Shown: positions 30,283 through 61,134 of the stretch, piece after piece
Numbering within the stretch: position 1 is the first letter of the stretch
How the letters are laid out: the number at the start of each line of letters is the position of its first letter
NCBI GenBank assembly: GCA_015075305.1
Contig: JABTUS010000004.1
Coordinates: forward strand, 238,679 to 302,678
Length of the DNA stretch: 64,000 bases
Source: Opitutaceae bacterium
GTDB taxonomy: Bacteria; Verrucomicrobiota; Verrucomicrobiia; Opitutales; Opitutaceae
Direction of reading: 5' to 3'
The notes under the pieces: model-generated
The model's database searches: none
Seen by the model: the letters and a program-made list of their open reading frames with translations, nothing else
What the model was told of the DNA's origin: nothing
Program-made: the position numbers and the translations under genes

Positions 30283-31020
30283 TCAACCGCTGTAGGAAAG
30301 CTCCTGCTCGCTCAGCTCCTGTGGCGAAATTGCGTCAGAATCCGCAATCAGCCGTATGGATTTCTCAACAATGTCCTCGATATGCCGCTCCATGGCATCG
30401 CGTGCGGCGCGCGCATCGCGCCGTGCGATGGCGTCATGGATTTCCTCGTGGCTCGCCAGCACCTTCCTGCGGTTTGAATCGGAGATTTCCTTTCCGGCCT
30501 GCTTTGGCATGCTCGGGCCGATCATGACGCGGTTGATCATGTTCAGTCTCAATATTTCAGCCTTCATCAGCGCATTGTGAGCAGCTGCCATGATGGCAAT
30601 GTGAAAACGCACATCCTCGCGGAGCAGGTCACCGATGAATGGGGCCTCGTCGCTTGAAGAGAGGATGCTTGATGTAAGATTCCGCATCGCATCCAGCGCA
30701 TATTGAATTTCCCGGAGATCAGATTGGCTGTGATTTACCGCGGCGAGTGCGGCCGCGTGCCCTTCCAGCGCAAGGCGCAACTCGCACAACTCCCGGAATT
30801 CCTTGCGGCCCATCTTGGTCACGTTGGCACCCAAGTGTGGCCGGATGACAACGAGACCATCGGCTTCCAACTGTCGAAGCGCATCGCGAACCGGAGTCCG
30901 GCTGACGCCAATCTCAGATGACAAATCCTTGGTCATCAACGGGCTGCCCGGAGGATATTCGCCGCTGAGTATCCGCTTCCGAATATGGTCGTATGCGAGG
31001 TCGGAGTTTACGCTCTTCAC
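30283..31020 (-). CDS. GntR family transcriptional regulator (FadR/FCD subfamily)
   Basis: N-terminal wHTH (LAYDHIRKRILSGEYPPGSPLMTKDLSSEIGVSRTPVRDALRQLEADGLV) plus an all-helical FCD-type C-terminal domain. Divergent from the heparinase-like gene. Confidence 0.88.
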   Translation of the reverse strand: MKSVNSDLAYDHIRKRILSGEYPPGSPLMTKDLSSEIGVSRTPVRDALRQLEADGLVVIRPHLGANVTKMGRKEFRELCELRLALEGHAAALAAVNHSQSDLREIQYALDAMRNLTSSILSSSDEAPFIGDLLREDVRFHIAIMAAAHNALMKAEILRLNMINRVMIGPSMPKQAGKEISDSNRRKVLASHEEIHDAIARRDARAARDAMERHIEDIVEKSIRLIADSDAISPQELSEQELSYSG

Positions 31021-31168
31021 GCTTGCGATGATATGCCCGTGTATACCTTGCTTTCAACAAGATTTTCTGGTCGTGGCGCATCTGTTCTCAAAAGCCGTAG
31101 AAGCCCGCGGTTTGAGATTTGTCACGCATTGCAGCGTGCACGAAGATTTCAATGCTGCCCTGGTTGCG

Positions 31169-33037
31169 ATGCGTATTCTCTCGATCGTTCTCTTGTTTGC
31201 TTCCCAGGCATTCGCCGCCACGGGGAGCGCGCCGGATTCTCTTGCCGGGCTTCGGTCCGGCCATCCCCGGCTGCTGTTCACAAATGAGCAGTTGAACGCC
31301 GCCGTCGCCGCCGCACGGATCGATCCTCTGCGTGCGAAGCTTCATGAGCGCATTCTCGCGCTTGCTGAAGATCAGATTGGCACACAGCCGGTCAGGCATG
31401 AGCTCATCGGTCCCCGGCTTCTGGACAAGTCTCGCACGGCGCTGGGGCGAATCCTCACGTGCGCGATGGCCTTTCGACTCAGCGGCGACATGCGCTATGC
31501 GCTTCGAGCGAAGAAGGAGTTGTTCGCCACGGCAGGCTTCCCCGATTGGAATCCGTCTCATTTTCTTGATGTGGCGGAAATGAGTCTGGCCTTCGCCATT
31601 GGCTACGACTGGCTTTATGAGCAGTTGCAGCCCGCGGAGCGTGAGCGGCTGAAGGCCGCGTTGATGAAACACAGCCTGTCGTTTGCGTCCGCCGCCTATG
31701 CAGGATTGAAGCCGACCGACAAGCGGCTCCGGTTCGTTACAGCGGTCAACAACTGGAATCAGGTCTGCAACGCCGGTCTCCTGGCTGCGGCATTGGCGAT
31801 TGCCGATGAAGAGCCGGAGGTCGCACGACTCGTTGTGAATGGTGCGCTGCGTTCGCTTCCTGTCGCGATGAAGGCTTCCTACTGGCCCGACGGAGCCTAT
31901 CCGGAAGGTCCCGCCTATTGGGATTACGGGACCGGCTACAATGTTGTCGCGATCGCAGTGCTCGAAAGCGCACTCGGGACGGACTTCGGGCTGAGTCGAT
32001 CGCCAGGACTGGATCGAACCGCGCTTTATCGGCTCAATGTCGAGGGTCCGAGCGGGTACGCATTCAATTACGCCGACGGTCGTCCGGCGATCGGTGCCCA
32101 GCCTGAATTCACATGGCTGGGCCGGCGGTTCAACCTGCCCTCAGTCTTGCAGCATTGTCGCGATGCGCTGGAATCCGAGCTATCGAAGCCGACATCGATG
32201 AATCGCATGATGGCTATGCACGCGGTGTGGTTTCCGGCGCCCGTGGGCGCGCCTGTTCCGGAGCCGGCGCTTGACAGGTACTTTCGGGGCCCGGCCGAAC
32301 TCGTGATGCTTCGCAGCGCCTGGAATGATCCGCGCGCCCTGTTTGTCGGATTCAAGGCGGGTCGGAATGATGTCAGCCACGCACATCTTGATCTGGGGTC
32401 ATTCATCCTCGACGCCGATGGTGTGCGCTGGGCGCACGATCTCGGACCGGACAACTACAATCTGCCCGGATACTTCGGGGCTGAGCGATGGAGCTACTAT
32501 CGGTTGAACAACCGCAGTCACAACACCCTTACGCCGGGAAATCATCTTCAGTCCGCCGTGGCTGTCGCGCCGGTAGTCGCCTTCAGTTCGCAGGTCACGA
32601 AAAGCTTCGCGATAACCGACCTCACTGGAGTCTACGCGGGAGTGGCGCAAAGCATCCGGCGGGGAGTGGCGCTTCTGGATCGCGCGCGGGTGCTCGTTCA
32701 GGATGAATTGAGCGCCGTGAAATTGGGAACGGTGCTCAAGTCGCGGGTCGTGACGGGAGCGCGGGTGACGCTTGAGGACGCGCGACATGCGACCTTGCGG
32801 CAGATGGATCGCATGCTTCGCGCGGAGATTCTCGCGCCCGAGGACGGTCGATTCCGCGTGGCGCCGGCCCGCCCGGACACTTCGAGGGAGAATGCCAACA
32901 AGGGATTGACCGCGCTGACGGCGGAGGCCACCGCCAATTCGCCCGACATGCGGATCGTGATCCTGCTCACACCCGTCGGGGAGCGCTGGCATAACTTCCC
33001 CGGACAGCCGGCCGTCACTCCTCTGGCCGATTGGTGA
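31169..33037 (+). CDS. heparinase II/III-like polysaccharide lyase family protein, secreted
   Basis: MRILSIVLLFASQAFA signal. N-terminal alpha/alpha toroid-like region (HPRLLFTNEQL, NWNQVCNAG) and C-terminal HAHLDLGSFILDADGVRWAHDLG, typical of the Hepar_II_III domain. Confidence 0.78.
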   Translation: MRILSIVLLFASQAFAATGSAPDSLAGLRSGHPRLLFTNEQLNAAVAAARIDPLRAKLHERILALAEDQIGTQPVRHELIGPRLLDKSRTALGRILTCAMAFRLSGDMRYALRAKKELFATAGFPDWNPSHFLDVAEMSLAFAIGYDWLYEQLQPAERERLKAALMKHSLSFASAAYAGLKPTDKRLRFVTAVNNWNQVCNAGLLAAALAIADEEPEVARLVVNGALRSLPVAMKASYWPDGAYPEGPAYWDYGTGYNVVAIAVLESALGTDFGLSRSPGLDRTALYRLNVEGPSGYAFNYADGRPAIGAQPEFTWLGRRFNLPSVLQHCRDALESELSKPTSMNRMMAMHAVWFPAPVGAPVPEPALDRYFRGPAELVMLRSAWNDPRALFVGFKAGRNDVSHAHLDLGSFILDADGVRWAHDLGPDNYNLPGYFGAERWSYYRLNNRSHNTLTPGNHLQSAVAVAPVVAFSSQVTKSFAITDLTGVYAGVAQSIRRGVALLDRARVLVQDELSAVKLGTVLKSRVVTGARVTLEDARHATLRQMDRMLRAEILAPEDGRFRVAPARPDTSRENANKGLTALTAEATANSPDMRIVILLTPVGERWHNFPGQPAVTPLADW

Positions 33038-33051
33038 ATGGAAAACTGACC

Positions 33052-34257
33052 ATGGAAAGCACACATGCGGCCGTGCAATCGCCAGCGCAGCGTCCACCGG
33101 GGCGTCTGGTGTCGCTCGATGCATTTCGTGGAGCAATCATGATTTTTCTGCTTTCGGCGGGATTCGGTTTCCGCGAGGTGGCGCGCAAGCATCCGGATTC
33201 AGAATTCTGGCAGTTTCTCAGTTACAACACGGATCATGCAATATGGCTGGGGGGAGGTGCGTGGGACATGATCCAGCCCGCGTTCATGTTCATGGTTGGA
33301 GTGGCGATGCCTTTCAGCTACGGTAGGCGTCGCGAGGAAGGGCAGGGATTGGGACCGCAGTTTCGGCATGTGATGTGGCGCACGTTTGTTCTCCTTCTGA
33401 TCGCCCTGCTGATCGTGACGAAGGCTGGCGAATCGCGGACGAACTTCATTTTCACGAACGTGCTCGCGCAGATTGCGCTCGGGTATCCGTTTCTGTTCCT
33501 CCTTTCGCGAACAAGCGAAAGGGCGCAGTGGATCACGATCGGCGTGCTTGCCGTCGGGACCTGGGCCGTTTTTGCCGCGCATCCGGCGCCCCCGGCGGAT
33601 TTCGATTACGCGAGCGTCGGAGTGCGGCCTGCGATTGCGGGCGCAGTGACGCTTCCCGGATTCTTCTCGCACTGGAACATGGGGACCAATGGGGGAGCCG
33701 ACTTTGACCGGTGGTTCCTGAATCTCTTTCCCCGGGACAAACCCTTTGAGTACAATCCAGGAGGCTACGTGACGCTCAATTTTGTGCCATCTCTGATCAC
33801 AATGACCCTGGGACTGATGGCCGGCTCGCGACTGAGGGGAAATGCTGCGGCGGCTTCCAAACTGCGCTGGCTGCTGGCCGCCGCGCTTGCCTGCCTGCTC
33901 GCCGGACTTCTTGCCGGGGGAACCGTGTGCCCGATCGTGAAGCGCATCTGGACGCCATCCTGGGCACTGTACAGCGGCGGGATCGTGCTTCTGCTGCTTG
34001 CCGGATTCCACTATGTCATCGACATGCGCGGATGGAACCGCTGGTCGTATCCATTCGTGATTGTCGGAGTCAACGCCATAGCCGCGTATCTGATGGACAT
34101 GTTCTTTCGCGAATGGGTGATGGAAAAACTGCGGTCGCACCTCGGCTTTGCAGTAAAAGGAGACTTTGCCATCATCTGGTTCCGGGTCCTCGCGCTGCTG
34201 GTCATGTGGGTGGTTTGCTGGTGGATGTACCGCAGGAAAATTTTTCTCAAAATCTGA
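33052..34257 (+). CDS. DUF5009/HGSNAT-like polytopic membrane acyltransferase
   Basis: RLVSLDAFRGAIMIFLL near the N-terminus and about 10 hydrophobic helices, as in heparan-alpha-glucosaminide N-acetyltransferase-like (DUF1624/DUF5009) proteins. ATG at 33052, 15 nt after the heparinase-like stop. Confidence 0.72.
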   Translation: MESTHAAVQSPAQRPPGRLVSLDAFRGAIMIFLLSAGFGFREVARKHPDSEFWQFLSYNTDHAIWLGGGAWDMIQPAFMFMVGVAMPFSYGRRREEGQGLGPQFRHVMWRTFVLLLIALLIVTKAGESRTNFIFTNVLAQIALGYPFLFLLSRTSERAQWITIGVLAVGTWAVFAAHPAPPADFDYASVGVRPAIAGAVTLPGFFSHWNMGTNGGADFDRWFLNLFPRDKPFEYNPGGYVTLNFVPSLITMTLGLMAGSRLRGNAAAASKLRWLLAAALACLLAGLLAGGTVCPIVKRIWTPSWALYSGGIVLLLLAGFHYVIDMRGWNRWSYPFVIVGVNAIAAYLMDMFFREWVMEKLRSHLGFAVKGDFAIIWFRVLALLVMWVVCWWMYRRKIFLKI

Positions 34258-34270
34258 TCTCCATTCGATC

Positions 34271-34816
34271 ATGAAAATCCCACGGATACTCCGCCCGGTC
34301 CTTGCCGTGATCGCTTCCGCCCTTGCAGCCGGAGCCGCCTCCGTCGAAATCGTTCGCGACCATTACGGCGTGCCTCACATCTTTGGAGCGACACTGGCCG
34401 ACGCGCTCTACGGCCAGGGCTACTGTCACGCCCAGGACAATCTCCCACTTGTGCTGTCGGGAATTTGCGCGGCGCGCGGAGAGAGCTCGCTGAATGGTGA
34501 GGAGCGCCGGGGAAGCGCAGTGGAGTCGGATTTTTCAGTGAGGATTTTCCATCTCAGCGAAATTGCGCTGCGGAACTATGAGTCGCTCCCGTCGCAGGAT
34601 CGGCGCCTGCTTGATGCCTATGCGCTCGGCGTCGAGAAGTTTCTTGCCGATCATCCCGCCAAGCGCCCGGCCTGGCTCGGAAGGATCAGTGGAGCGGACA
34701 TCATTGCCGTGACGAAACTCCGTCAGATGCAGCAATCGCTTGAGTGGCGAAGGACGATTTGTCCGGCAAGGCGGCGGGGCGCCGCGAGCGTGAGCTGGCC
34801 ATGGCGCTGGACCTAA
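34271..34816 (+). CDS. penicillin/AHL-acylase family (Ntn hydrolase S45), alpha-subunit part, terminated by a frame break
   Basis: Signal peptide, then VEIVRDHYGVPHIFGATLADALYGQGYCHAQDN (classic S45 N-terminus). The last ~23 codons (WRRTICPARRRG...) look out of frame. Confidence 0.7.
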   Translation: MKIPRILRPVLAVIASALAAGAASVEIVRDHYGVPHIFGATLADALYGQGYCHAQDNLPLVLSGICAARGESSLNGEERRGSAVESDFSVRIFHLSEIALRNYESLPSQDRRLLDAYALGVEKFLADHPAKRPAWLGRISGADIIAVTKLRQMQQSLEWRRTICPARRRGAASVSWPWRWT

Positions 34817-36399
34817 ACGGTGCTTCGAACATGTGGGCGCTGCGGCCGGAACGCACGAGCGACGGATCCACCCGCCTGATGTCGGATCCGCATCTTCCGT
34901 GGGATGGAGCGACAAAGTGGCATGAGTCACACCTGGTCGCGGGGGACCGCTGGATCTACGGAGCGGTTTTCCCGGGCAGCCCCGGCGTGGGAATCGGGTT
35001 TACGGCAAATGTGGCCTGGGGCTTCACCAACAATGGGGCGGATATCGCCGATGTCTTCCGCCTGAAAATCAACCCAAAGAACCGCAACCAGTACCTCTAT
35101 GAAGGGGCCTGGCGCGAATTGAGAAGTGAAACGCATGTTGTTGAAGCGCGAGAAGCGGGCGGCGCTGTCCGACGCCTGGAGCGGGTGGTGCGCTACAGCC
35201 ATCAGGGCCCGATCATGCAGGAGAATGGAAAAGGGAATGAGGCCTTTGCCGTGCGCCTCGCTGCATTTGACGCGCAATCGGAGACTCTTGACTGGGTTGG
35301 AAAGCTTGAAGCCGGATCGCTTGCGGAATTTGAGGCCTCGATGGATCGCTCGCATGGCTACAAGTGGAACTGCATTGCGGCCGACAATGCGGGAAACATC
35401 GGTTACTACTACATTTGCGCGGCCCGGGAACGCGATGAGTCGCTGGCATGGAATGCACCCGTGGACGGTTCCTCTGCAAAGACGGAGTGGGGCCGGCAGC
35501 TCACCTGGCGCGATCTCCCGCACATCGTCAATCCCCGCGCCGGCTATCTTGTGAACTGCAACAACAACGCGTTCACAGTCACCCGGGACGGTGAACTCAA
35601 GCCGGGTCGGTATCCGCGGAGCTACGGCAGCCAGGGCACGACGCTGGGCAGGGACACGCGTGCGTATCGCGCCATTGAACTCATTGAGGCAAGGCCGAAG
35701 CACGATGACGCGGACATCTCCGCAATCACTTTCGACGTCAAAACCCTCACCGCCGGACCTCTGGTGAAACAGATCCTCGATGCAGCCAAGACCGCGGGTT
35801 CAGGCGAAGGCGGTGAGTCCGCGAGGCGTTCGGCCGCGCTGGAATTGCTGCGAACCTGGGATGGATTTGCCACGATTGAGAATCAGGCGCTTCCCATTCT
35901 GGCGGGTTATCTGCAGGCGGCGGAGGAGAAGGAGATACCGCTCCGGCAGTTGGAGCGAAAATCACCCAGGGAAGTGATCGCGCTTCTTGACGAGGGCCTG
36001 AAGCTCCTCGGAAAACGCTGGGGCGATGGGCCGGTCACCTGGGGGCAGCTGCATGTGATTCGACGCGGGGATCTTGAAATTCCGGTCCCGGGCGCCGGCT
36101 CCGAGCGGGGCAGGGATCCTTTTTCAACGCTTTTCATGGTGGGGGCGAAGACATCCCACAATGGCCAGTACTACGCGGACAGCGGTTCGTCCTGGCTGCA
36201 GTCAATTGCGTACAAGAGTGGGGAGGTGGCCGCTGAAACGGTTCTTCCCTTCGGAAACAGCAATGATCCGGCATCGCGGCACTACAACGACCAGTCAGCG
36301 CTTTTCGCTGCGCGGAGAATGAAGACCGCTTTGCTGACGCGATCCGCTGTGGAGGCGGACGCCGAGTCGCGCTTCACGCTCGAGAGTCCGTTCGAATGA
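34744..36399 (+). CDS. penicillin/AHL-acylase family, spacer plus beta-subunit part (-1 frame relative to the alpha part)
   Basis: LNGASNMWALRP carries the N-terminal nucleophile Ser (SNxW). Further strings: SDPHLPWDG, NCNNN, GNSNDPASRHYNDQ. The frame is preceded directly by a TGA. Confidence 0.75.
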   Translation: MAKDDLSGKAAGRRERELAMALDLNGASNMWALRPERTSDGSTRLMSDPHLPWDGATKWHESHLVAGDRWIYGAVFPGSPGVGIGFTANVAWGFTNNGADIADVFRLKINPKNRNQYLYEGAWRELRSETHVVEAREAGGAVRRLERVVRYSHQGPIMQENGKGNEAFAVRLAAFDAQSETLDWVGKLEAGSLAEFEASMDRSHGYKWNCIAADNAGNIGYYYICAARERDESLAWNAPVDGSSAKTEWGRQLTWRDLPHIVNPRAGYLVNCNNNAFTVTRDGELKPGRYPRSYGSQGTTLGRDTRAYRAIELIEARPKHDDADISAITFDVKTLTAGPLVKQILDAAKTAGSGEGGESARRSAALELLRTWDGFATIENQALPILAGYLQAAEEKEIPLRQLERKSPREVIALLDEGLKLLGKRWGDGPVTWGQLHVIRRGDLEIPVPGAGSERGRDPFSTLFMVGAKTSHNGQYYADSGSSWLQSIAYKSGEVAAETVLPFGNSNDPASRHYNDQSALFAARRMKTALLTRSAVEADAESRFTLESPFE

Positions 36400-36405
36400 T
36401 TTCGC

Positions 36406-37905: not shown

Positions 37906-37986
37906 GGGATATGTTTGTGATTGTTGAAGCGGCTGCGCGTTTCAGCCATTCCACGCCTGGTGGCATTCGGACGGACGGCTGTCCGC

Positions 37987-40086: not shown

Positions 40087-40141
40087 GGCATGGGAATGGA
40101 AGACTGAGCGGCTGGTCACTGCAATTTCGTTTGCGGGAATT

Positions 40142-45293: not shown

Positions 45294-45297
45294 GGAA

Positions 45298-46815: not shown

Positions 46816-47288
46816 GGGAAAAGCGGAGGGGGCAGAGCGATCGGGAACGTGGGCTGGGAGACGGTAACGCTGCGAGCTGTCTGGCAACATGGACAAAGCC
46901 GGACAATGGCTGGATTTTGTGCACATCCAGCCGTGGTCACTTCGCATAGACGCCGCACGCCCGGTCTGGTTACCGATGGTGGCTTGAATTCCTGATCGCT
47001 GCGGAAATCACGGCTCACCACATGCAAGTGTGACAGCGGATGATTTTGGTGCTGCCGGACCACATTGAGGCCGCAGCTCGTGGAAAAGTCCAGTTTCCCG
47101 ACCGGTTTGTCCATGGTTCGATGATGCCCTATCCCATAGCCTTCATCTCCGGTGCGCACGTTCAGACGTGCGATCAAAGTGCGCGCCGACCGACGACAGA
47201 TTGAAATTTCACCATGAACCCACGGATCATCGCATCTCGAATAATGCGTTGATCATCCCCGCTTGCTGCGTTAAACAGTCAGTCCACC

Positions 47289-50216: not shown

Positions 50217-50280
50217 GGAGTTGTTGGTCCCGCGCTGACGCACGATCCGCCGCAGGCACCCGTCTCGCTATTCGTCATTC

Positions 50281-51930: not shown

Positions 51931-51946
51931 GCCCGGATTGTTCGAG

Positions 51947-54671: not shown

Positions 54672-54679
54672 ATTTGATT

Positions 54680-56203: not shown

Positions 56204-57827
56204 GTCGCTGGCTGTGCTGGTCGCGGCGTGCACCCTGTGCGGTGGGGGCAGTCAGGCGCTTGGCAATGAGCCGGTGGTCGATCGCCTGCAGACGGAGGCC
56301 CGGGGGATCCATCTGCTCTGGGCGGATGACAAGCCGGACCAGACGGATATCATGAGGCTGCCATTTGTGCATGGCGGTCAGGTCGTCGTGCAGTGGGCGG
56401 ACATCGAGCCCCAGCCCGGACGGTACGACTTCAAGTCCATGGACTCCAAACTTGCCTATTTGGCGGGCCTGAACGCATGGGCGACGGTTCAGATCAATGG
56501 CAATCTGAAACCTGGCTGGCTTTTCAGGGAGGTGCCCTCGGTCTCCGCGCGTTTTCACCAGCAGGTCCAGGACGAGCAGGGCACGCTCATGTTCTGGCAT
56601 CCGCGATTCATTGAGGCGCACCTCGCGATGCTCCGGTCCGTGGCGGCGCATCTGCGCACGAGCTCCTGGCGCGAAAGGCTCCTTGGCATCCGCATGAATT
56701 TCAATGCGGTAGGCACGGAGCAGCTGCACATCCCCGAGGAGTATTGCGATCCGAGGGCATGGAGGATTCCGGCCGGAGTCTCGGTGGACGGCGTCCCTGT
56801 TTACGATGAGACGGTGCGACAGCGCTACGTTTCACGGACAGTCGAAACCTACGAGAAGGAGTTCTCCCAATGGGCAGTTGTGTTTGTGCGCAATCTTGTG
56901 GACGGCGAAGTGCTGGCCCGGATTGCGCCCGACCTGCGGGCGGGAAGACTCGGACTCTTTCACACGTCGAGCGAAGTCGAACCGCGCACGGGGATGACGG
57001 AGCGCCGCTACGGCATGTTTTATGACTACGCGCGTTCAGGGGAAACCGTTGCCTATGCGGAACCCTGGGCCTCCGCTTGGGGGGAGCATGGGGGCAAGAA
57101 TGATGTGCGCTGGTGCAGCCCCTGCCAGTGGAACTACTGGACCCTGCTATTTAATCTGCATTGCGGCGTCTCGTTCATCGGAGAGTACTACATCAATCTT
57201 CATTTTGCCCTCACCGGGGACCATCCGCGGCGGCTAAAGGACACCGTGCATCCGAAGGAGCAGGCCGGGGAGTTTCTGGCCGCCTACCGATGGGTGGACA
57301 CCTATGCGGGCAGGCACAATCGTCCGCTTGAAACCCCCGGTGCATGGGTCGCCTTCCGTCAGAATTCAGAGATCAAGGCGAAGAACTCGATAGGACCGAG
57401 GGATGGATGGACACTCCGGCGATTTTCGGGCGACTACAATTTCCTGATGGAGCGGCTGGATGGGGATGATTCCGTCGGTGTCGGCCCGGTGGGTCCTCCG
57501 GAACAGCGTTATGGCGCCTTTGCCCGAAAATATCCCGCGCAGCGCAGCGCCAGGCTCAGACTGGATTCGGACTTCCTGCGCGTACTCTCACAGCATGGTG
57601 GAAGCGTGAGGGTCATCTATCTCGACGACGCACGGCGCCCCGATGCGCTGGTGCGAATCGGAGATGATGTTGTCGGACAACTCAGATTTTCCTCGGGAGG
57701 ACGCTGGCAGATCGCCGAGTTCGCAGTTCCGAAGGAAAGCTGGAAGCGAACGACCAGCGAGTGGCAGATCGAAGTTGCCAGCGGGGCGGCTCCCGTGACG
57801 CTGCATCTTGTGGAGGCGCGCCGTTAA
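56184..57827 (+). CDS. uncharacterised exported protein, candidate (beta/alpha)8 glycoside hydrolase
   Basis: Signal/lipoprotein-like N-terminus (LAVLVAACTLCGG). VVQWADIEPQPGRYDF...LAYLAGLNAWATVQI...KPGWL resembles the W..lEP..G.YDF opening of GH42/GH35-type barrels. The rest is unrecognised. Overlaps the upstream sulfatase by 20 nt. Confidence 0.55.
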   Translation: MNMQSIESLAVLVAACTLCGGGSQALGNEPVVDRLQTEARGIHLLWADDKPDQTDIMRLPFVHGGQVVVQWADIEPQPGRYDFKSMDSKLAYLAGLNAWATVQINGNLKPGWLFREVPSVSARFHQQVQDEQGTLMFWHPRFIEAHLAMLRSVAAHLRTSSWRERLLGIRMNFNAVGTEQLHIPEEYCDPRAWRIPAGVSVDGVPVYDETVRQRYVSRTVETYEKEFSQWAVVFVRNLVDGEVLARIAPDLRAGRLGLFHTSSEVEPRTGMTERRYGMFYDYARSGETVAYAEPWASAWGEHGGKNDVRWCSPCQWNYWTLLFNLHCGVSFIGEYYINLHFALTGDHPRRLKDTVHPKEQAGEFLAAYRWVDTYAGRHNRPLETPGAWVAFRQNSEIKAKNSIGPRDGWTLRRFSGDYNFLMERLDGDDSVGVGPVGPPEQRYGAFARKYPAQRSARLRLDSDFLRVLSQHGGSVRVIYLDDARRPDALVRIGDDVVGQLRFSSGGRWQIAEFAVPKESWKRTTSEWQIEVASGAAPVTLHLVEARR

Positions 57828-57831
57828 GAAT

Positions 57832-59448
57832 ATGAAAGTGATCCAATCGATTCGTCTGATTCTGCTGTCTGTCGCTGCGATCGCCGCTCAATGCGTCGCA
57901 GCGACAAATCGTCCGAACATACTTTTCTGCATCGCTGATGATGCATCGTATGCGCACTTCTCGGCGAACGGATGCCGATGGGTGAACACCCCGGCGTTTG
58001 ACCGGATTGCCCGCGAGGGACTCCTGTTCAGCCGCGCCTACACTCCAAACTCCAAGTGTGCGCCGTCGCGCGCGGTGGTGCTCACCGGGCGAAACAGCTG
58101 GCAGCTGGAATCCGCCGCCAATCATGGCGGCTACTGGCCGGAGGGAAAGTATCGAACGTTTGTTGAGACGCTCGGTGAAAACGGGTACCACACCGGCATG
58201 ACTGGAAAAGGCTGGGGTCCGGGGGATCCCGGGCATCTCAATGGCCGGGCACGCCAGCTGGCGGGGCGGCCGTACAATGACAAACGGAAGACTCCCCTGA
58301 CGGACAAGATTTCGCCGGTCGACTACGCCGGAAACTTTGCGGCCTTTCTCCAGGATCGTCCGGCGGGCAAGCCATTCTGCTTCTGGTTTGGGGCCCATGA
58401 GCCTCACCGCGACTACAGCCGTGGATCAGGCATCAGGCTGGGAGGGAAATCCCCGGGTCAGATAGATCGCGTTCCGCTCTATCTGCCGGACACGCCCGCG
58501 GTTCGCAGTGACATGCTGGACTACGCGCTCGAGATTGAATACTTCGATGCCCAACTCGGGCTCGTCCTCGATGTGCTGGAAAAGACCGGCGAACTGGAGA
58601 ATACAATCGTCGTCGTCACATCCGACAACGCGATGCCGTTTCCCCGCCTGAAGGGCACCACGTACGAGGCCGCCCTGCACCTGCCCCTGGCTATTCGCTG
58701 GGGACGAGGCATTGCCCACCCCGGTCGCACGGTGAACGATCTCGTGAGTTTCATCGATTTTGCACCCACGTTTCTCGATGCAGCGGACATTGATCCGGTG
58801 AAGACATCGATGGAGTCCATTCAGGGCGGAAGCCTGCTCGATATTTTCCGGAATACAGACGATGGAAAAATTCAGCCTGGCCGTGAATCGCTCTTCACCG
58901 GCCAGGAACGCCACGACCTTGGGCGACCGAACGATGTCGGGTATCCCGTCCGGGGCATGCTGACGGAGCGTTTTCTCTATCTGCACAACTTCGAACCGGC
59001 GCGATGGCCCATGTGTGATCCGATCACCGGCTACCTCAATACGGACGGCGGGCCGAGCAAGACTGCTGTGCTTGAGGAGAATCGAAAGGGGATAAACCAC
59101 TGGCGCTGGGAGCTGGATTTCGGCCGTCGACCGGCTGAGGAACTTTATGACCTTCAGAGCGACCCCGACTGCATTGTCAACCTTGCGGCCGATCCTGATT
59201 TTGATTCCACGAGAGTTCAAATGAAGGAGCGACTTTTCTCCGCGCTTCGAGAGCAGCGCGATCCGCGCATGGAAGGGAAGGGCGAGGTGTTTGACAGGTA
59301 TCCGCATGCATCGGCCCTGCGAAACTTCTACGAACGGTACCTAAAGGGAGAACGCCTGAGGACACCCTGGGTGGAGGAGTCGGACTATGAGTCACACGAC
59401 TTTGACGCCGAACGGCCCCTTGCGCCAAGGCATCCGGTCGGCCGCTGA
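57832..59448 (+). CDS. formylglycine-dependent sulfatase (N-sulfoglucosamine sulfohydrolase/sulfamidase-like), secreted
   Basis: PNILFCIADDASYAHFSANG, KCAPSRAVVLTG, VTSDNAMPFPRLKG. The ADD..(not VDD) opening recalls SGSH-type enzymes; the subfamily call is tentative. Confidence 0.88.
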   Translation: MKVIQSIRLILLSVAAIAAQCVAATNRPNILFCIADDASYAHFSANGCRWVNTPAFDRIAREGLLFSRAYTPNSKCAPSRAVVLTGRNSWQLESAANHGGYWPEGKYRTFVETLGENGYHTGMTGKGWGPGDPGHLNGRARQLAGRPYNDKRKTPLTDKISPVDYAGNFAAFLQDRPAGKPFCFWFGAHEPHRDYSRGSGIRLGGKSPGQIDRVPLYLPDTPAVRSDMLDYALEIEYFDAQLGLVLDVLEKTGELENTIVVVTSDNAMPFPRLKGTTYEAALHLPLAIRWGRGIAHPGRTVNDLVSFIDFAPTFLDAADIDPVKTSMESIQGGSLLDIFRNTDDGKIQPGRESLFTGQERHDLGRPNDVGYPVRGMLTERFLYLHNFEPARWPMCDPITGYLNTDGGPSKTAVLEENRKGINHWRWELDFGRRPAEELYDLQSDPDCIVNLAADPDFDSTRVQMKERLFSALREQRDPRMEGKGEVFDRYPHASALRNFYERYLKGERLRTPWVEESDYESHDFDAERPLAPRHPVGR

Positions 59449-59532
59449 TGGATGCCCGGTGGTCCGCCACATCCATGGGGTCTGCGGGAAGATGGCACCA
59501 TCGAATCTGGAGGCCGCGGGGGAGCCGCGCCC

Positions 59533-61134
59533 TTATTTGAGTTTAGACAGATCCCGCTTTATGTCCGGGCTGGGAAGCGGCGGCAGATTGCTGCGCACCT
59601 GCTTTTTTGGAGGATTGCGGGGAAGATCGGGTGCAAAGTGCGAGGGGTAGAGTGCGGCGAGGCTTCGTTTTGCCGCAACGACCTCCGGGTCCGAGGACCG
59701 AGCCAGATTCTTCCACTGCATGGGGTCCGTCCGCATGTCATAGAACTCCTCCGTGCCGTCTTGGTAGCGGATATAGTACCAGCGCTCATCACGAATCGAC
59801 GCGTTGCCAAGCCCGTTTATGGTCATCGTTGGATACTGCCAGGACCGCGCGGGCTCCTTGAGCAGTGGAACAAAGCTGCGCCCGTCGATCTCCGCCTTTG
59901 GAGGAAGACCGCAGAGTTCAATGAGCGTCTTGTAAAGATCCATGAGGTTGACGAGTCGGGGGCTCTCGGCCCGCCCGCTGGTGATGCCAGGCGCGCGCAC
60001 CATCAGCGGCAGACGTGTCGCCTCCTGCCAGAGCGTCGCTTTGCGGAATCGCAGTTTTTCTCCGAGGTGCCAGCCATGATCACCGAATATCATGACGATC
60101 GTGTTGTCCTTGTAGGCGCTTTTCGCGAGACCGTCCAAAACGACACCCACGCACTCATCGGAGTATGCCGCGGCGGCAAGGTAGGCCTGCACGGCCCGCT
60201 TGAAAAGGTCGGCGTGGTCCTTCCGGGTGACCCACTTGAAGTCCGCGGACTCACTGAATTTCCTTTTCCCATCAGGTGTCAGAATGTCATCCAGATCATC
60301 GAGTTTGTATTCCGGAATCACGATGCCATCGAGAGGAAAGCGGTCAAAGTACTCCTGCGGCACATACCAGGGAAGATGCGGCTTGCTGATGCCGACCACC
60401 ATGAAGAAGGGCTTGTCGTGCTGTTTGGACAATTCGTCCGCCGCCCACTGGGAGGTAAGGTAGTCAGGAGTGCCCTCTTTCCCTTCCCTTGTGGGCCCCC
60501 AGGCGAACTCAGTGCCTTCATCATCCCGCGAGAAGACCGCATCGTCCTTGGTGGGCGCGCCCTTCGTCCCATCATACACGCCTTTCAAGCGCGAGTAGAG
60601 GTGGGAGGGATTCACTCCCCAGGCACCTTCAGTGCTGCTCCAGTCGGTGAAGGCCCACTGCCCCTCATCAAGCCCGTCGGCTGTCGCATGCTTGTGGAAG
60701 AACTTGCCGCGGTTGATCGTCTGATAGCCGTTTTGGGCAAAATACTCAGGCAGGGTGGCGTGAGTCTGCACCAGCGGAGATCGCCGCATGTTCTGGCTGT
60801 TGCCATAGATACCGGTGCGATAGGGCATGAATCCCGAGAGAAATGCGGAGCGCGAAGGACCGCAGACGGGGCCAGGACAGTAGGCATTTTGAAAAGTGAC
60901 GGCCCCTTCTGCGCAGAACCGGTCCATGTTCGGCGTGCGAGTCTGGGGATTGCCTCCGAAGGTGCCGACCCAGTCGTTAAGGTCATCGATCGAGATAATG
61001 AGCACGTTGGGTCTGGAAGCCTCCGGGGCTGGAGCAGCCGAGACGGACAGTTGCATCACAATGGCGATTGCCGCAAGCCAAGCGGCAGAGGAGAGTTTCC
61101 CGATAAGACGGGAACAATGCGGTGATGGATTCAT
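59533..61134 (-). CDS. formylglycine-dependent sulfatase, secreted
   Basis: PNVLIISIDDLNDW, VCGPSRSAFLSG, IFGDHGWHLGEK. Confidence 0.9.
   Translation of the reverse strand: MNPSPHCSRLIGKLSSAAWLAAIAIVMQLSVSAAPAPEASRPNVLIISIDDLNDWVGTFGGNPQTRTPNMDRFCAEGAVTFQNAYCPGPVCGPSRSAFLSGFMPYRTGIYGNSQNMRRSPLVQTHATLPEYFAQNGYQTINRGKFFHKHATADGLDEGQWAFTDWSSTEGAWGVNPSHLYSRLKGVYDGTKGAPTKDDAVFSRDDEGTEFAWGPTREGKEGTPDYLTSQWAADELSKQHDKPFFMVVGISKPHLPWYVPQEYFDRFPLDGIVIPEYKLDDLDDILTPDGKRKFSESADFKWVTRKDHADLFKRAVQAYLAAAAYSDECVGVVLDGLAKSAYKDNTIVMIFGDHGWHLGEKLRFRKATLWQEATRLPLMVRAPGITSGRAESPRLVNLMDLYKTLIELCGLPPKAEIDGRSFVPLLKEPARSWQYPTMTINGLGNASIRDERWYYIRYQDGTEEFYDMRTDPMQWKNLARSSDPEVVAAKRSLAALYPSHFAPDLPRNPPKKQVRSNLPPLPSPDIKRDLSKLK

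What the first reader, a model, noticed from the sequence alone, without database searches (positions are those of the whole stretch)
30283..61134. ~31-kb sulfated-glycan locus with eight sulfatases but only one recognisable backbone-cleaving enzyme
Between the GntR gene and 61134 I count eight Cys-type sulfatases; a ninth lies at 12238. Their FGly motifs are CSPSR, CVSSR, CHPSR, CNASR, CGPSR, CGPAR, CAPSR and CGPSR. The locus also holds one heparinase II/III-like protein, an HGSNAT-like membrane acetyltransferase, an S45 acylase, a double esterase, a TonB receptor, an SSS symporter and two regulators. There is no recognisable GH88/GH105, GH2, GH29, GH39 or GH89, no SusD, and no FGE or anSME maturase. 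The two large unassigned exported proteins (40142-41758 and 56184-57827) are therefore the obvious candidates for the missing glycosidic-bond cleavage steps. The substrate (heparan-like, ulvan-like, fucoidan-like or mucin-type) is not deducible from sequence alone.
Basis: partly seen in the sequence, partly recalled or inferred. Interest (0 to 1): 0.6.

Follow-up and report, generated by a model that had tools for sequence, protein, structure and literature searches.

The report
Sulfated-glycan locus with two candidate glycosidases
A soil or freshwater Opitutaceae bacterium carries its densest sulfatase gene cluster beside a glycosaminoglycan-type lyase and two uncharacterised enzymes that fold like sugar-cleaving TIM barrels, so the apparently missing cutting enzymes are probably these two proteins.

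Summary
Eight Cys-type S1 sulfatases with exactly the quoted FGly motifs lie in 30283-61134. This is the densest of 73 sulfatase loci in the 4.87-Mb genome (Poisson P ~3e-8).

The "heparinase II/III-like" gene is a PL35 glycosaminoglycan-lyase homolog (392 bits to GAGase II). All of its catalytic and Mn2+-binding residues are intact.

Both "unknowns" model confidently (pLDDT 93) as (beta/alpha)8 glycosidases.
- U1 (40142-41758) is closest to GH168 sulfated-fucan endo-fucanases. It keeps an invariant Asp, Asn and Glu on consecutive barrel strands. It has no Pfam or PDB sequence relative. Elsewhere its domain is fused to a sulfatase or to a BD-FAE esterase.
- U2 (56184-57827) is a divergent clan GH-A (GH35/GH42-like) enzyme. 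It sits in a conserved sulfatase-U2-sulfatase module.

The maturases are encoded elsewhere: one anSME and several FGE-domain genes.

The core locus (PL35, S2, U1, esterase, S3, S4, TBDR, SSS, AraC, S5, S6, U2, S7) is syntenic in three congeners. NagX, the frame-broken S45 acylase, S1, S8 and GntR are additions specific to this genome.

GH88/GH105, KduI and GH89 are absent genome-wide, so how the lyase products are processed is unexplained. The substrate is narrowed to an O-acetylated, sulfated glycan containing uronate and galactose, but it is not identified. dbCAN and SulfAtlas could not be run.

The parts
30283..31020 (-). GntR/FCD-family transcriptional regulator. Specific to this genome's version of the locus.
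   Evidence: PF00392 63.8 bits and PF07729 72.3 bits. No ortholog at 45% identity or better in the congener loci.
31169..33037 (+). PL35-family polysaccharide (glycosaminoglycan) lyase homolog with a signal peptide
   Evidence: 392 bits to 8khv GAGase II, 323 to 8khw GAGase VII and 280 to 9o3q 'PL35 chondroitinase'. The equivalents of Asn191/192, Tyr246, His401 and the Mn ligands His403, Asp405, Asp421 and His457 are all conserved (alignment, residues from PMC12088678). Single copy in the genome.
33031..34257 (+). NagX/HGSNAT-like polytopic membrane glucosamine N-acetyltransferase homolog. Genome-specific insertion.
   Evidence: NCBIfam NF046061 NagX, 115 bits, below the equivalog cut-off of 480. 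No Pfam hit. Absent from the congener loci.
34271..36399 (+). S45 (penicillin/AHL-acylase family) Ntn hydrolase split by a one-base frame break near 34741-34750. Either a pseudogene or an assembly error. Genome-specific insertion.
   Evidence: Pfam PF01804 positions 1-144 fall in ORF 34166-34816, and positions 161-675 fall in ORF 34744-36399 in another frame. Three-frame translation shows ...QQSLEW followed by a frame change, then AKDDL...GASNMW.
36406..37905 (-). Sulfatase S1 (CSPSR), closest to S1_11 GlcNAc-6-O-sulfatases. Genome-specific insertion.
   Evidence: PF00884 191 bits. 260 bits to 5g2v (BT4656 N-acetylglucosamine-6-sulfatase) and 252 bits to 7p24 (mucin-desulfating sulfatase). Absent from the congener loci.
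37987..40086 (-). Sulfatase S2 (CVSSR) with a C-terminal PA14 domain. S1_20-type, closest to terminal Gal-3-O-sulfatases.
   Evidence: PF00884 195 bits and PA14 40 bits. 567 bits to 9s8a and 508 bits to 9s8x, which I match by chain length (682 and 1263 aa) to the Akkermansia S1_20 3S-LacNAc/LNB sulfatases Amuc0451 and Amuc0953, described as having the same PA14 architecture. The CxSSR motif is conserved in four orthologs.
40142..41758 (-). U1: exported (beta/alpha)8 glycosidase candidate from a family with no Pfam or PDB sequence relative. Proposed nucleophile D271 and acid/base E362.
   Evidence: AF2 pLDDT 92.9, pTM 0.90. Foldseek top hits are GH168 endo-fucanases 8rg5, 9nhf, 9jof and 9jom (E ~1e-8, TMt 0.51-0.58), followed by GH13 and GH31. 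D271, N333 and E362 are invariant down to 19% identity. Profile against PDB sequences gives no GH hit. GHL15 scores 26.6 bits, below the cut-off of 27. Family size is 123 representatives at E<=1e-30. Sulfatase and esterase fusions exist.
41811..43682 (-). Exported tandem BD-FAE/Abhydrolase_3 carbohydrate esterase (two catalytic modules)
   Evidence: PF20434 233.9 bits in two stretches. A BD-FAE esterase is adjacent to or near U1 homologs in three contexts outside this genus, L009/L010 and L011, and is fused to the U1 domain in P0007.
43740..45293 (-). Sulfatase S3 (CHPSR), IDS/S1_7-like paralog group
   Evidence: PF00884 141.8 bits. In the paired S3+S4 search most of the best stretches fell in the S4 half, and only 7oz8 choline-sulfatase matched best in S3. 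S3 is placed in the group by 36-37% identity to S4, S5, S8 and S9.
45298..46815 (-). Sulfatase S4 (CNASR), IDS/S1_7-like paralog group
   Evidence: PF00884 137 bits. Best solved relatives are 6hhm (162 bits) and human iduronate-2-sulfatase 5fql (141 bits).
47289..50216 (+). TonB-dependent outer-membrane receptor, with no SusD partner
   Evidence: Plug domain 30 bits, 975 aa, many paralogs in the genome. Ortholog at 84-85% identity in congeners.
50281..51930 (+). Sodium:solute symporter (inner-membrane importer)
   Evidence: PF00474 155 bits. NF007790 586 bits, above the cut-off of 401. 91% identical in congeners and 78% in L016.
51947..53029 (+). AraC-family regulator with a cupin-type ligand-binding domain
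   Evidence: PF02311, PF12833 and PF00165 at 66-67 bits each. Conserved in congeners and in L016.
53019..54671 (+). Sulfatase S5 (CGPSR), IDS/S1_7-like paralog group
   Evidence: PF00884 147.5 bits. 29-37% identity to S3, S4, S8 and S9.
54680..56203 (+). Sulfatase S6 (CGPAR) with no signal peptide, so probably cytoplasmic. Closest to S1_30.
   Evidence: PF00884 185.6 bits. 168 bits to 9ihk 'Sulfatase_S1_30A'. The N-terminus MSRKQAVFFLIDTQG has no leader. 75% identical ortholog next to U2 in L016.
56184..57827 (+). U2: lipoprotein-like, exported clan GH-A (GH35/GH42-like) glycosidase candidate. Proposed acid/base E179 and nucleophile E293.
   Evidence: AF2 pLDDT 93.0, pTM 0.90. Foldseek top hits are GH35 beta-galactosidases 7kmn, 8fa4 and 4d1i, and 8z47/8z48 (which I take to be GH147), at E 1e-11 to 1e-8. 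E179, E264, E266 and E293 are invariant in 70 homologs. Pfam GH42 hits 67 of 70 members; in the window protein the hit covers only the N-terminal ~90 residues. The family profile's best PDB hit is 25 bits. The sulfatase-U2-sulfatase arrangement is conserved.
57832..59448 (+). Sulfatase S7 (CAPSR), closest to S1_8/SGSH-type
   Evidence: PF00884 130.7 bits. Best stretches to 9bb9 'S1_8A sulfatase' (114 bits) and human N-sulphoglucosamine sulphohydrolase 4mhx (90 bits). 66% identical ortholog after U2 in L016.
59533..61134 (-). Sulfatase S8 (CGPSR), IDS/S1_7-like paralog group. Genome-specific addition at the end of the locus.
   Evidence: PF00884 161 bits. 39-40% identity to S4. Absent from the congener loci. 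53% identical ortholog beside a U1 homolog in L013.

Best explanation
The region is an accessory, co-inherited glycan-utilisation island of an Opitutaceae (Verrucomicrobiota) bacterium. Its target is an O-acetylated, multiply sulfated acidic heteroglycan that contains uronate-HexNAc-type bonds and sulfated galactose. That description fits a glycosaminoglycan or proteoglycan, a mucin-like glycan, or an algal or cyanobacterial analogue. Backbone cleavage is not left to one enzyme.

Proposed sequence of steps:
1. An exported PL35 lyase cuts uronate-containing stretches by beta-elimination.
2. The tandem BD-FAE esterase removes O-acetyl groups.
3. S2 (S1_20+PA14) removes terminal Gal-3-O-sulfate, and the IDS-like sulfatases S3, S4, S5 and S8 remove other O-sulfates.
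4. U2, a retaining clan GH-A enzyme of the beta-galactosidase type, removes the exposed beta-linked residue. Its putative acid/base is E179 and its putative nucleophile is E293.
5. U1, a retaining (beta/alpha)8 enzyme with the GH168/GH29-like catalytic layout of Asp on beta4 and Glu on beta6 (D271 and E362), cuts an alpha-linked residue that is sulfated or was previously acetylated.
6. Fragments cross the outer membrane through the TonB-dependent receptor and the inner membrane through the SSS symporter.
7. The leaderless sulfatase S6 finishes desulfation in the cytoplasm, and AraC senses a product.

The sulfatases are matured by an anSME and/or FGE-type enzymes encoded on other contigs. NagX, the S45 acylase and the GlcNAc-6-sulfatase-like S1 form a later insertion, which would extend the range to GlcN(Ac)-6S-bearing substrates.

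What is shown: gene identities, folds, residue conservation, synteny, fusions and maturase locations. What is inferred: all catalytic activities, the order of steps, cellular locations and the substrate.
For: - Eight sulfatases with FGly motifs, forming the densest sulfatase cluster in the genome.
- PL35 identity with all catalytic and Mn residues conserved.
- U1 and U2 give high-confidence TIM-barrel models whose nearest structures are glycosidases.
- U1's D271, N333 and E362 stay invariant down to 19% identity. They fall in the same order, on consecutive barrel strands, as GH168's D172 (beta4), N218 and E243 (beta6) and PbFucA's D184 and E254.
- U2's E179 and E293 are invariant and are kept in its paralog and in its orthologs.
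- Fusions P0195 (sulfatase plus U1 domain) and P0007 (BD-FAE plus U1 domain).
- U1 sits beside esterases or sulfatases in unrelated contigs.
- The S6-U2-S7 module with SSS and AraC is conserved in L016, together with a distant U1-family gene, an S2-like sulfatase and a melibiase-like gene. U2 is adjacent to sulfatases in Kiritimatiellales and Novipirellula.
- The 13-gene core is syntenic in three congeners at 67-91% identity.
- S2 scores 567 bits to an Akkermansia S1_20 3S-Gal sulfatase with the same PA14 architecture. S1 scores 260 bits to BT4656.
- anSME at 523 bits, above the cut-off of 349, and FGE-domain ORFs lie elsewhere. A U2 paralog lies directly upstream of the anSME.
Against: - No activity, expression or growth data exist.
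- U2 lacks the canonical clan GH-A 'NE' dipeptide after beta4. It has N-F-N-A-x-G-T-E instead, so E179 as the acid/base is an inference.
- Foldseek TM-scores are modest (0.4-0.58) and sequence identity is only 8-13%.
- The genome has no GH88/GH105, no KduI and no GH89. The canonical fate of PL35 products is therefore missing, and the lyase's physiological role is uncertain.
- Sulfatase subfamilies were inferred from the nearest solved structures, not from SulfAtlas models. S5 and S8 were never searched.
- The neighbours of U1 homologs differ between lineages: GH2, GH20, GH27, GH38-like genes and GMC oxidoreductases. The family may therefore not have a single substrate.
Confidence: 0.6

Rival explanations
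1. A heparan-sulfate-specific, lysosome-like exo-pathway. IDS-like sulfatases remove the uronate 2-O-sulfate. S7 (SGSH-like) removes the N-sulfate. NagX re-acetylates the freed amine. U1 stands in for the missing GH89 alpha-N-acetylglucosaminidase. U2 stands in for an iduronidase or beta-glucuronidase, both of which belong to clan GH-A. S1 removes the 6-O-sulfate.
For: - NagX homolog directly after the lyase.
- S1 is closest to BT4656 of the Bacteroides heparin PUL.
- S4 is related to human iduronate-2-sulfatase and S7 to human sulfamidase.
- PL35 GAGases cleave heparan sulfate (abstracts).
- GH89 is absent genome-wide, so an analogue would be needed.
- U1's fold group acts on alpha-linkages, and U2 is in clan GH-A.
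Against: - NagX, S1 and the acylase are absent from the conserved locus in three congeners that keep U1 and U2.
- S2, the gene next to U1, is a Gal-3-O-sulfatase type with no role in heparan sulfate.
- U1 homologs travel with esterases, GH27/GH36-like genes and GH20, not with NagX.
- The similarities to IDS and SGSH are weak (90-160 bits).
Confidence: 0.12
2. A locus for fucose-containing sulfated polysaccharide (fucoidan-like). U1 is a divergent endo- or exo-alpha-L-fucanase. The esterases remove the acetyl groups typical of fucoidans. The sulfatases strip fucose and galactose sulfates. PL35 and U2 handle glucuronate and galactose side chains.
For: - U1's four best distinct structural relatives are GH168 sulfated-fucan endo-fucanases.
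- U1 shares their Asp, Asn and Glu pattern.
- It is tightly linked to esterases and to a sulfatase fusion.
- Verrucomicrobiota and Planctomycetota are known fucoidan specialists (PMC11685898, and my own knowledge).
Against: - No sequence-level similarity to GH168.
- No GH29, GH95, GH107 or GH141 in the locus.
- GH13 and GH31 score almost as well as GH168 in Foldseek.
- The nearest homologs carry names of soil or freshwater lineages (Lacunisphaera), where brown-algal fucoidan is not expected.
- The sulfatases are closest to S1_7, S1_8, S1_11, S1_20 and S1_30 rather than the fucoidan-associated S1_15, S1_16, S1_17 and S1_25 (the association is from my own knowledge).
Confidence: 0.12
3. A mucin- or keratan-type (sulfated LacNAc) O-glycan locus. 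S2 removes 3S-Gal and S1 removes 6S-GlcNAc. U2 is the beta-galactosidase. The GH36-like enzyme (present in congeners) and U1 remove alpha-Gal or alpha-GalNAc caps. The esterases remove O-acetyl groups.
For: - S2 is a close homolog (567 bits, same PA14 fusion) of the Akkermansia 3S-LacNAc/LNB sulfatases.
- S1 is close to the S1_11 mucin-desulfating enzymes.
- U2 resembles beta-galactosidases.
- GH36-like, GH27 and GH20 genes recur with U1 and U2.
Against: - There is no role for a PL35 lyase or for four IDS-like sulfatases.
- The locus has no GH20, GH33, GH29, GH95 or mucinase.
- S1 is not in the conserved core.
- The organism appears environmental, not host-associated (names).
Confidence: 0.12
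4. U1 and/or U2 are not enzymes of this pathway. They could be non-catalytic glycan-binding proteins built on a TIM-barrel scaffold, or enzymes for an unrelated substrate that happen to be embedded among sulfatase genes in a sulfatase-rich genome.
For: - No sequence-level membership in any characterised GH family.
- U2 lacks the canonical NE motif.
- The genome has 73 sulfatase loci, so some adjacency arises by chance.
Against: - Invariant acidic residues sit at the strand ends expected for catalysis across very divergent homologs.
- Physical fusions to a sulfatase and to an esterase exist.
- Adjacency to sulfatases is repeated in different phyla.
- Synteny is conserved.
Confidence: 0.08

Closest known systems
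PL35 glycosaminoglycan lyases (GAGase II 8KHV, GAGase VII 8KHW, B. caccae PL35 chondroitinase 9O3Q)
   Same: Full-length similarity of 280-392 bits. The (alpha/alpha)6 toroid plus beta-sheet family. The Tyr/His catalytic pair, the Asn-Asn neutraliser and the four Mn2+ ligands are all conserved.
   Different: The host is Verrucomicrobiota. There is no SusC/D PUL. There is no GH88/GH105 partner anywhere in the genome. Activity and substrate range are untested.
GH168 endo-alpha-1,3-L-fucanases (PbFucA 8RG5, Fun168D 9JOF, 9NHF)
   Same: They are the best structural matches to U1. Both are (beta/alpha)8 barrels followed by a C-terminal beta subdomain. Both have Asp on beta4, a conserved Asn and Glu on beta6, and both work in a sulfated-polysaccharide context.
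   Different: There is no detectable sequence similarity, by single sequence or by profile. U1 is about 190 residues longer and has an inserted ~75-residue beta-domain (residues 139-213). TM-scores are only 0.4-0.58, and GH13 and GH31 score nearly as well.
Clan GH-A beta-galactosidase families GH35, GH42, GH147 and GH167
   Same: U2 has the barrel plus C-terminal beta-sandwich architecture. GH35 and what I take to be GH147 (8z47/8z48) are the best Foldseek hits. The N-terminal strands match the GH42 and GH35 profiles. An invariant Glu after beta4 and another after beta7 fit a retaining mechanism. Like GH167, it is a GH42-like enzyme that works after a sulfatase.
   Different: Profile similarity is 25 bits or less and is confined to about 90 residues. 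U2 has no NE motif and no GH42 trimerisation domain. GH167 enzymes are ~800 aa with four domains, and BovGH167, which has a solved structure, gave no hit. NCBIfam GH35 scores 12 bits against a cut-off of 500.
Bacteroides thetaiotaomicron glycosaminoglycan PULs (heparin/HS and CS/HA loci)
   Same: Both combine a lyase, several S1 sulfatases (including a GlcNAc-6-O-sulfatase relative of BT4656), an outer-membrane TonB-dependent transporter and a dedicated regulator (PMC6994673, listed).
   Different: This locus has no SusD, no GH88, no hybrid two-component sensor and no PL8, PL12, PL13 or PL15. It has eight sulfatases instead of two to four, plus two uncharacterised TIM-barrel enzymes, a tandem esterase and an SSS symporter.
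Akkermansia muciniphila S1_20 (Amuc0451/Amuc0953) and S1_11 mucin sulfatases
   Same: S2 has the same sulfatase-plus-PA14 architecture and scores 508-567 bits against them. S1 is closest to the S1_11 6S-GlcNAc enzymes. Both organisms belong to Verrucomicrobiota.
   Different: This is an environmental Opitutaceae. The sulfatases are embedded with a PL35 lyase and IDS-like sulfatases. Specificity is untested. S2's FGly motif is CVSSR, and I could not compare it with the Akkermansia sequences.
Lysosomal heparan sulfate pathway (IDS, SGSH, HGSNAT, NAGLU, GNS)
   Same: Homologs or analogues of IDS (S3, S4, S5, S8), SGSH (S7, weak), HGSNAT (NagX) and a GlcNAc-6-sulfatase function (S1) are present.
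   Different: There is no GH89, GH39 or GH2 in the locus, and no GH89 in the genome. NagX and S1 are not conserved with the rest of the locus. A lyase is present, which lysosomes lack.

Membership tests
S1 formylglycine-dependent sulfatases (all eight) | PF00884 sulfatase domain above threshold, with the C/S-x-P/A/S-x-R FGly motif near the N-terminus of the domain | tested here: met
   130-195 bits against a cut-off of 25. The motifs are CSPSR, CVSSR, CHPSR, CNASR, CGPSR, CGPAR, CAPSR and CGPSR.
SulfAtlas subfamilies (S1_11 for S1, S1_20 for S2, S1_7-like for S3/S4/S5/S8, S1_30-like for S6, S1_8-like for S7) | Score on the subfamily-specific SulfAtlas HMM, or placement in the subfamily clade | not testable with these tools
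   Only the nearest solved structures were used as a proxy. S2 is strong (567 bits) and S1 is good (260 bits). The others are weak at 110-170 bits. S5 and S8 were assigned only by paralogy.
PL35 | Full-length sequence similarity to characterised PL35 members | tested here: met
   392, 323 and 280 bits to 8khv, 8khw and 9o3q over about 580 residues.
PL35 | Catalytic Tyr (acid), His (base), Asn-Asn neutraliser and the His/Asp/Asp/His Mn2+ site | tested here: met
   The motifs NNWNQ, AYW, SHAHLD, AHD and SHNTL align to GAGase II Asn191/192, Tyr246, His401/403, Asp405, Asp421 and His457 (alignment, residue list). The 8khv chain numbering is 22 lower than the paper's numbering.
PL35 | Beta-eliminative cleavage of HA, CS or HS | not testable with these tools
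   This needs an enzyme assay that follows A232 on GAG substrates.
GH168 | Sequence similarity to GH168 members | tested here: not met
   phmmer of U1 and hmmsearch of the 57-sequence family profile against all PDB sequences, which include several GH168 structures, returned no GH168 hit at E<=1.
GH168 | (beta/alpha)8 barrel with Asp nucleophile on beta4 and Glu acid/base on beta6 | tested here: inconclusive
   The fold is met. Invariant D271 lies at the end of strand 267-271 and E362 just after strand 358-361, with N333 between them, matching D172, N218 and E243. Strand numbering and geometry could not be verified without model coordinates.
Pfam GHL15 (PF14885) | Score at or above the gathering threshold | tested here: not met
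   26.6 bits against 27, covering only the last 62 profile positions. Only 5 of 57 close members and 6 of 45 distant members give any hit.
GH42 | Pfam PF02449 match over the catalytic domain, including the NE acid/base and the nucleophile Glu | tested here: not met
   The whole-protein score of 24.5 exceeds the cut-off of 21, but the match covers only profile positions 31-123 of 376. The family profile scores 25 bits to GH42 4ucf over 94 residues. The sequence after beta4 is NFNAxGTE, not NE.
GH35 | Sequence-profile membership | tested here: not met
   NCBIfam GH35_fam scores 12.1 bits against a cut-off of 500. The family profile scores 19.5 bits or less against GH35 structures. The similarity is structural only.
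GH167 | About 800 aa in four domains, with sequence similarity to BovGH167 | tested here: not met
   U2 is 547 aa with two domains. No hit to any such chain in the PDB sequence searches. The GH167 description comes from PMC6923384.
Any CAZy GH family (dbCAN) for U1 and U2 | Hit to a CAZy family HMM | not testable with these tools
   dbCAN and CAZy are not available here. Families that have neither a Pfam model nor a solved structure cannot be excluded.
Anaerobic sulfatase-maturating enzyme (anSME) | TIGR03942 equivalog score above the cut-off | tested here: met
   523.4 bits against 349.45 at C14:356005-357159, outside the window.
Bacteroidota-type PUL | Adjacent SusC/SusD pair | tested here: not met
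   A TonB-dependent receptor is present, but there is no SusD-like Pfam hit in any locus ORF. From my own knowledge, this is expected for Verrucomicrobiota.

The most novel reading that the evidence does not exclude
U1 founds an unclassified glycoside hydrolase family. The family has about 120-300 clusters at 50% identity and is a distant structural relative of the GH29/GH107/GH151/GH168 fucosidase-fucanase group. It would be specialised for an alpha-linked residue in O-acetylated, sulfated glycans, which would explain its natural fusions to an S1 sulfatase and to a BD-FAE esterase. In addition, this bacterium uses a PL35 lyase without any GH88/GH105 or KduI. One of the uncharacterised TIM-barrel enzymes, or another unknown protein, would then supply a non-canonical way of processing unsaturated uronate-terminated products.
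Probability: 0.35. Interest if true: 0.7.

Novelty: new variant of a known kind. Interest (0 to 1): 0.5.

Why it matters
Breakdown of sulfated glycans by Verrucomicrobiota and Planctomycetota controls the turnover of some of the most recalcitrant natural polysaccharides. It also supplies tools for analysing glycosaminoglycans and algal glycans. Many loci in these phyla look rich in sulfatases but poor in glycosidases. This locus gives two concrete candidates for the missing cleavage steps.

Both candidates come with predicted catalytic residues that can be tested directly. They also come with natural partners (sulfatase, esterase, PL35 lyase) that indicate which pre-treatments to use in assays. 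U1 is a plausible new GH family. U2 is a widespread family in the PVC bacteria (Planctomycetota, Verrucomicrobiota and their relatives) that is currently mislabelled "beta-galactosidase" on the strength of a 90-residue match.

The genome-wide lack of GH88/GH105 and KduI beside an intact PL35 lyase also raises a specific, answerable question: how are the unsaturated lyase products consumed?

Tried and rejected
1. U1 and U2 as paralogs of each other. Rejected, because BLASTP finds no similarity.
2. Direct sequence assignment of either unknown to a solved family. phmmer and family-profile hmmsearch against all PDB sequences found nothing for U1. For U2 they found only a hit of 25 bits or less at the N-terminus.
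3. U1 as a member of Pfam GHL15. Rejected, because the score is below threshold and only 5 of 57 members hit.
4. U2 as GH167 ("GH42-like" carrageenan enzymes). Rejected on size, architecture and the lack of a sequence hit.
5. U1 as a relative of the GH36-like gene found in congeners. hhalign gives a probability of 0.1%.
6. A literature route to the S1_30 function. Both searches returned only unrelated papers, because the search engine reads S1_30 as "S130".
7. A GHL15 literature search gave nothing relevant.
8. Checking the S45 frame break and locus expression in sequencing reads.
9. The U2-paralog/anSME pairing as a conserved unit. It is not conserved in 60 relatives, and only this genome has it.
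10. The sulfatase at 12085-13722 and the GH78/AraC/TBDR genes at 1-6000 as part of the locus. Rejected, because housekeeping genes (GluRS, argininosuccinate lyase, glycogen phosphorylase, PhoH and others) lie between them and the locus.
11. The long ORFs 59452-61125(+) and 51857-53140(-). They have no Pfam hit and lie antisense to S8 and AraC, so I treated them as GC-rich shadow ORFs.

Full report
**Observation.**
- Eight PF00884 sulfatases score 130-195 bits. They lie at 36406-37905(-), 37987-40185(-), 43740-45338(-), 45298-46947(-), 52797-54671(+), 54629-56203(+), 57808-59448(+) and 59533-61134(-).
- The other genes are a GntR/FCD regulator, a Hepar_II_III_C protein, a penicillin-amidase (S45) homolog, a tandem BD-FAE esterase, a TonB Plug protein, an SSF symporter and an AraC regulator.
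- The membrane protein at 33031-34257 has no Pfam hit but matches NCBIfam NagX, a transmembrane glucosamine N-acetyltransferase of the HGSNAT type, at 115 bits.
- The genome is 4.87 Mb in 17 contigs and 97.6% complete. It has 73 sulfatase loci, which predicts 0.46 per 30.85 kb. Eight are observed, giving Poisson P = 3.5e-8. This is the densest sulfatase window in the genome, and the next independent cluster has five.
- Homolog names place the organism in Opitutaceae, with Lacunisphaera-like best hits.
- Housekeeping genes bound the locus upstream. An EF-hand protein and an AI-2E transporter bound it downstream. The ninth sulfatase and a GH78/AraC/TBDR group at the window's 5' end are therefore separate.

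**The lyase.** The "heparinase II/III-like" protein is a PL35 homolog. It scores 392 bits to GAGase II (8khv), 323 bits to GAGase VII (8khw) and 280 bits to a "PL35 chondroitinase" (9o3q), against 49 bits or less to heparinases II/III and alginate lyases. The PL35 structural paper names Tyr246 and His401 as the acid and base, Asn191/192 as the neutraliser, and His403, Asp405, Asp421 and His457 as the Mn2+ site (PMC12088678). After allowing for a 22-residue numbering offset in the 8khv chain, every one of these residues is conserved in the window protein. Characterised PL35 enzymes cleave hyaluronan, chondroitin sulfate and heparan sulfate, and one also cleaves alginate. The gene is single-copy.

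**The two unknowns.**
- U1 and U2 are unrelated to each other. Neither has a sequence relative among solved structures.
- With 57- and 70-sequence alignments, AlphaFold2 gives pLDDT 92.9 and 93.0, with pTM 0.90 for both.

*U1.*
- Its best Foldseek matches are GH168 sulfated-fucan endo-fucanases (8rg5 PbFucA, 9nhf, 9jof/9joc Fun168D, 9jom). E-values run from 2e-8 to 1e-6, and TM-scores normalised to the target are 0.51-0.58. GH13 and GH31 alpha-glucosidases follow.
- In 44 further family members that are only 19-32% identical to U1, eight residues stay invariant: E176, R194, P213, D271, N333, E362, L442 and R497.
- D271 ends strand 267-271, N333 follows strand 329-332, and E362 follows strand 358-361. 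This is the same order as the GH168 nucleophile D172 (beta4), the conserved N218 and the acid/base E243 (beta6) (PMC12534559). It also matches PbFucA D184 and E254 (PMC11685898).
- The family is essentially outside Pfam. GHL15 is hit, below threshold, by only 5 of 57 close and 6 of 45 distant members.
- The family is small. An exhaustive profile search of 1.84 billion cluster representatives finds 123 at E<=1e-30 and 311 at E<=1e-10.

*U2.*
- It matches GH35 beta-galactosidases (7kmn, 8fa4, 3u7v, 4d1i) and 8z47/8z48, which I take to be GH147, at E 1e-11 to 1e-8.
- Pfam GH42 is hit by 67 of 70 family members. In the window protein the hit covers only the first ~90 residues of the barrel.
- The family profile scores at most 25 bits against any solved GH42 or GH35.
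- Invariant E179 lies in the motif NFNAxGTE after strand 166-170. Invariant E293 lies in YAEPW after strand 290-293. Both sit where clan GH-A places its acid/base and nucleophile. The canonical NE dipeptide is missing, however.
- U2 is not GH167. Those enzymes are ~800-residue, four-domain proteins with a solved structure, and they gave no hit.

**Genomic context.**
- U1 homologs in unrelated metagenomic contigs sit next to BD-FAE esterases (L009/L010, L011) or among sulfatases, GH27, GH36-like and GH20 genes (L013).
- The U1 domain occurs fused to a BD-FAE esterase (P0007) and to an S1 sulfatase (P0195).
- U2 homologs are adjacent to sulfatases in Kiritimatiellales, and sulfatases lie within 5 kb in Novipirellula.
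- Contig L016 repeats SSS (78%), AraC (67%), S6 (75%), U2 (57%) and S7 (66%). These are followed by an S2-like sulfatase, a distant U1-family gene, a melibiase-like gene and a TBDR.
- Within the genus, U1 occurs in 5 of 14 genomes, counting the window's own. It is essentially absent from the other 47 genera sampled; the single exception is a 25%-identity match.
- Three of the four congeners that carry it show the whole core order at 67-91% identity: PL35, S2, U1, esterase, S3, S4, a GH36-like gene, TBDR, SSS, AraC, S5, S6, U2, S7, EF-hand. The fourth has only a short contig and shows S2, U1, esterase, S3 and S4.
- The window's locus differs from that core. It lacks the GH36-like gene, although a 48%-identical copy lies 184 kb upstream next to a third, distant U2-like gene. 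It has also gained GntR, NagX, the S45 acylase, S1 and S8.

**Sulfatase types**, judged by nearest solved structure.
- S1 is closest to BT4656 GlcNAc-6-O-sulfatase (260 bits).
- S2 scores 567 and 508 bits to 9s8a and 9s8x, two of the structures deposited with the Akkermansia sulfatase study. By chain length (682 and 1263 aa) I match these to Amuc0451 and Amuc0953, the S1_20 3S-LacNAc/LNB sulfatases described there with a C-terminal PA14 domain.
- S4 is closest to 6hhm and to human iduronate-2-sulfatase (about 140-160 bits). S3, S5, S8 and the distant S9 are its paralogs at 29-40% identity.
- S6 is closest to an S1_30 enzyme (168 bits) and has no signal peptide. S7 is closest to S1_8 and human sulfamidase (90-114 bits).
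- These are proxies and not SulfAtlas assignments.

**Maturases and missing partners.**
- A true anSME (TIGR03942, 523 bits against a cut-off of 349) lies at C14:356005-357159. Five ORFs with FGE-sulfatase domains lie on C1, C10 and C14. The absence of a maturase is therefore only local.
- A U2 paralog (33% identity, both glutamates kept) sits directly upstream of the anSME. That pairing is unique to this genome.
- Genome-wide searches find no GH88/GH105 (PF07470), no KduI (PF04962) and no GH89 (PF05089). In each search the named control genomes gave matches. The usual route for unsaturated lyase products, and the usual partner of an HGSNAT-like enzyme, are both absent.

**Interpretation.**
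- The best-supported reading is a co-inherited island for an O-acetylated, heavily sulfated acidic heteroglycan. The PL35 lyase, U1 (a retaining enzyme of the alpha-acting fold group) and U2 (a retaining clan GH-A enzyme of the beta-galactosidase type) share the bond-cleaving work. The sulfatases and the esterase unmask their substrates.
- Uptake would run through the TBDR and the SSS symporter, with a cytoplasmic sulfatase (S6) finishing desulfation.
- Gene identities, folds, conserved residues, synteny and fusions are shown. Activities, order, localisation and substrate are inferred.
- Pure heparan-sulfate, fucoidan and mucin/keratan readings each explain part of the gene set but conflict with other parts (see the rival explanations).
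- The heparan-like module (NagX, S1 and the acylase) is a recent addition rather than the organising logic of the locus.

**Limits.**
- dbCAN/CAZy and SulfAtlas models were not available, so membership of U1 or U2 in a CAZy family that has neither a Pfam model nor a structure cannot be excluded.
- Model coordinates could not be inspected.

Noticed in passing
window 34271-36399 (break near 34741-34750): The S45 penicillin/AHL-acylase-family gene is split over two reading frames. The alpha-subunit part ends at ...QQSLEW. The beta-subunit part, with its GASNMW nucleophile motif, continues in another frame. This is a one-base frame shift, so the gene is either a pseudogene or an assembly error. 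The gene is absent from the syntenic loci of the congeners.
   Followed up: partly
genome C14:356005-359102 (outside the window): A U2 paralog (33% identity, both putative catalytic glutamates kept) lies about 130 bp upstream of the genome's only anSME sulfatase-maturase gene, on the same strand. The pairing was not found in 60 related genomes.
   Followed up: partly
genome C12:54480-58090 (184 kb upstream of the window): A GH36-like (melibiase) gene is 48% identical to the one that sits inside the locus in congeners. It is followed directly by a third, distant U2-like gene (27-34% identity). A matching distant U2-like gene occurs in G007, G009 and G010, but I did not check whether a GH36-like gene lies beside it there.
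   Followed up: partly
window 40142-41758, U1 residues ~139-213: A beta-domain of about 75 residues is inserted in the U1 barrel and carries the invariant E176 and R194. It matches, as tandem repeats (6-17 copies), giant proteins of 1,200-7,600 aa in the representative library. It also matches a phage tip attachment protein J chain (8rk3, E 0.0085). No Pfam model covers it.
   Followed up: partly
window 37987-40086: S2 carries CVSSR, with Ser where FGly motifs usually have Pro or Ala. The C-x-S-S-R form is conserved in all four orthologs (CVSSR in three, CISSR in one), so it is a stable feature and not an error. I could not compare it with the Akkermansia S1_20 sequences.
   Followed up: partly
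window 54680-56203: S6 is the only one of the eight locus sulfatases that clearly lacks a signal peptide. It follows an SSS symporter and an AraC regulator, which suggests cytoplasmic desulfation of an imported sulfated sugar. The SSS-AraC-S6-U2-S7 order recurs at 57-78% identity in a distant metagenomic contig (L016).
   Followed up: partly
whole genome: No GH88/GH105, KduI or GH89 domain is detectable anywhere in a 97.6%-complete genome that encodes an apparently intact PL35 GAG-type lyase and a NagX/HGSNAT-like protein.
   Followed up: yes
window 1-6000 and 12085-13722: A separate small glycan locus lies at the window's 5' end: a TonB receptor fragment, a GH78 alpha-L-rhamnosidase (403 bits) and an AraC regulator. 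An isolated IDS-like sulfatase (S9, CSPSR) sits among housekeeping genes.
   Followed up: no
window 59452-61125(+) and 51857-53140(-): Long ORFs of 557 and 427 aa with no Pfam hit lie antisense to the sulfatase S8 and to AraC. They are most likely shadow ORFs of a 60% GC genome.
   Followed up: no
window 61273-61638: A small exported protein with a pair of EF-hand domains ends the locus. It is conserved at the same position (68% identity) in two congeners, so it may belong to the unit. Sulfatases are Ca2+-dependent, but no link was tested.
   Followed up: no
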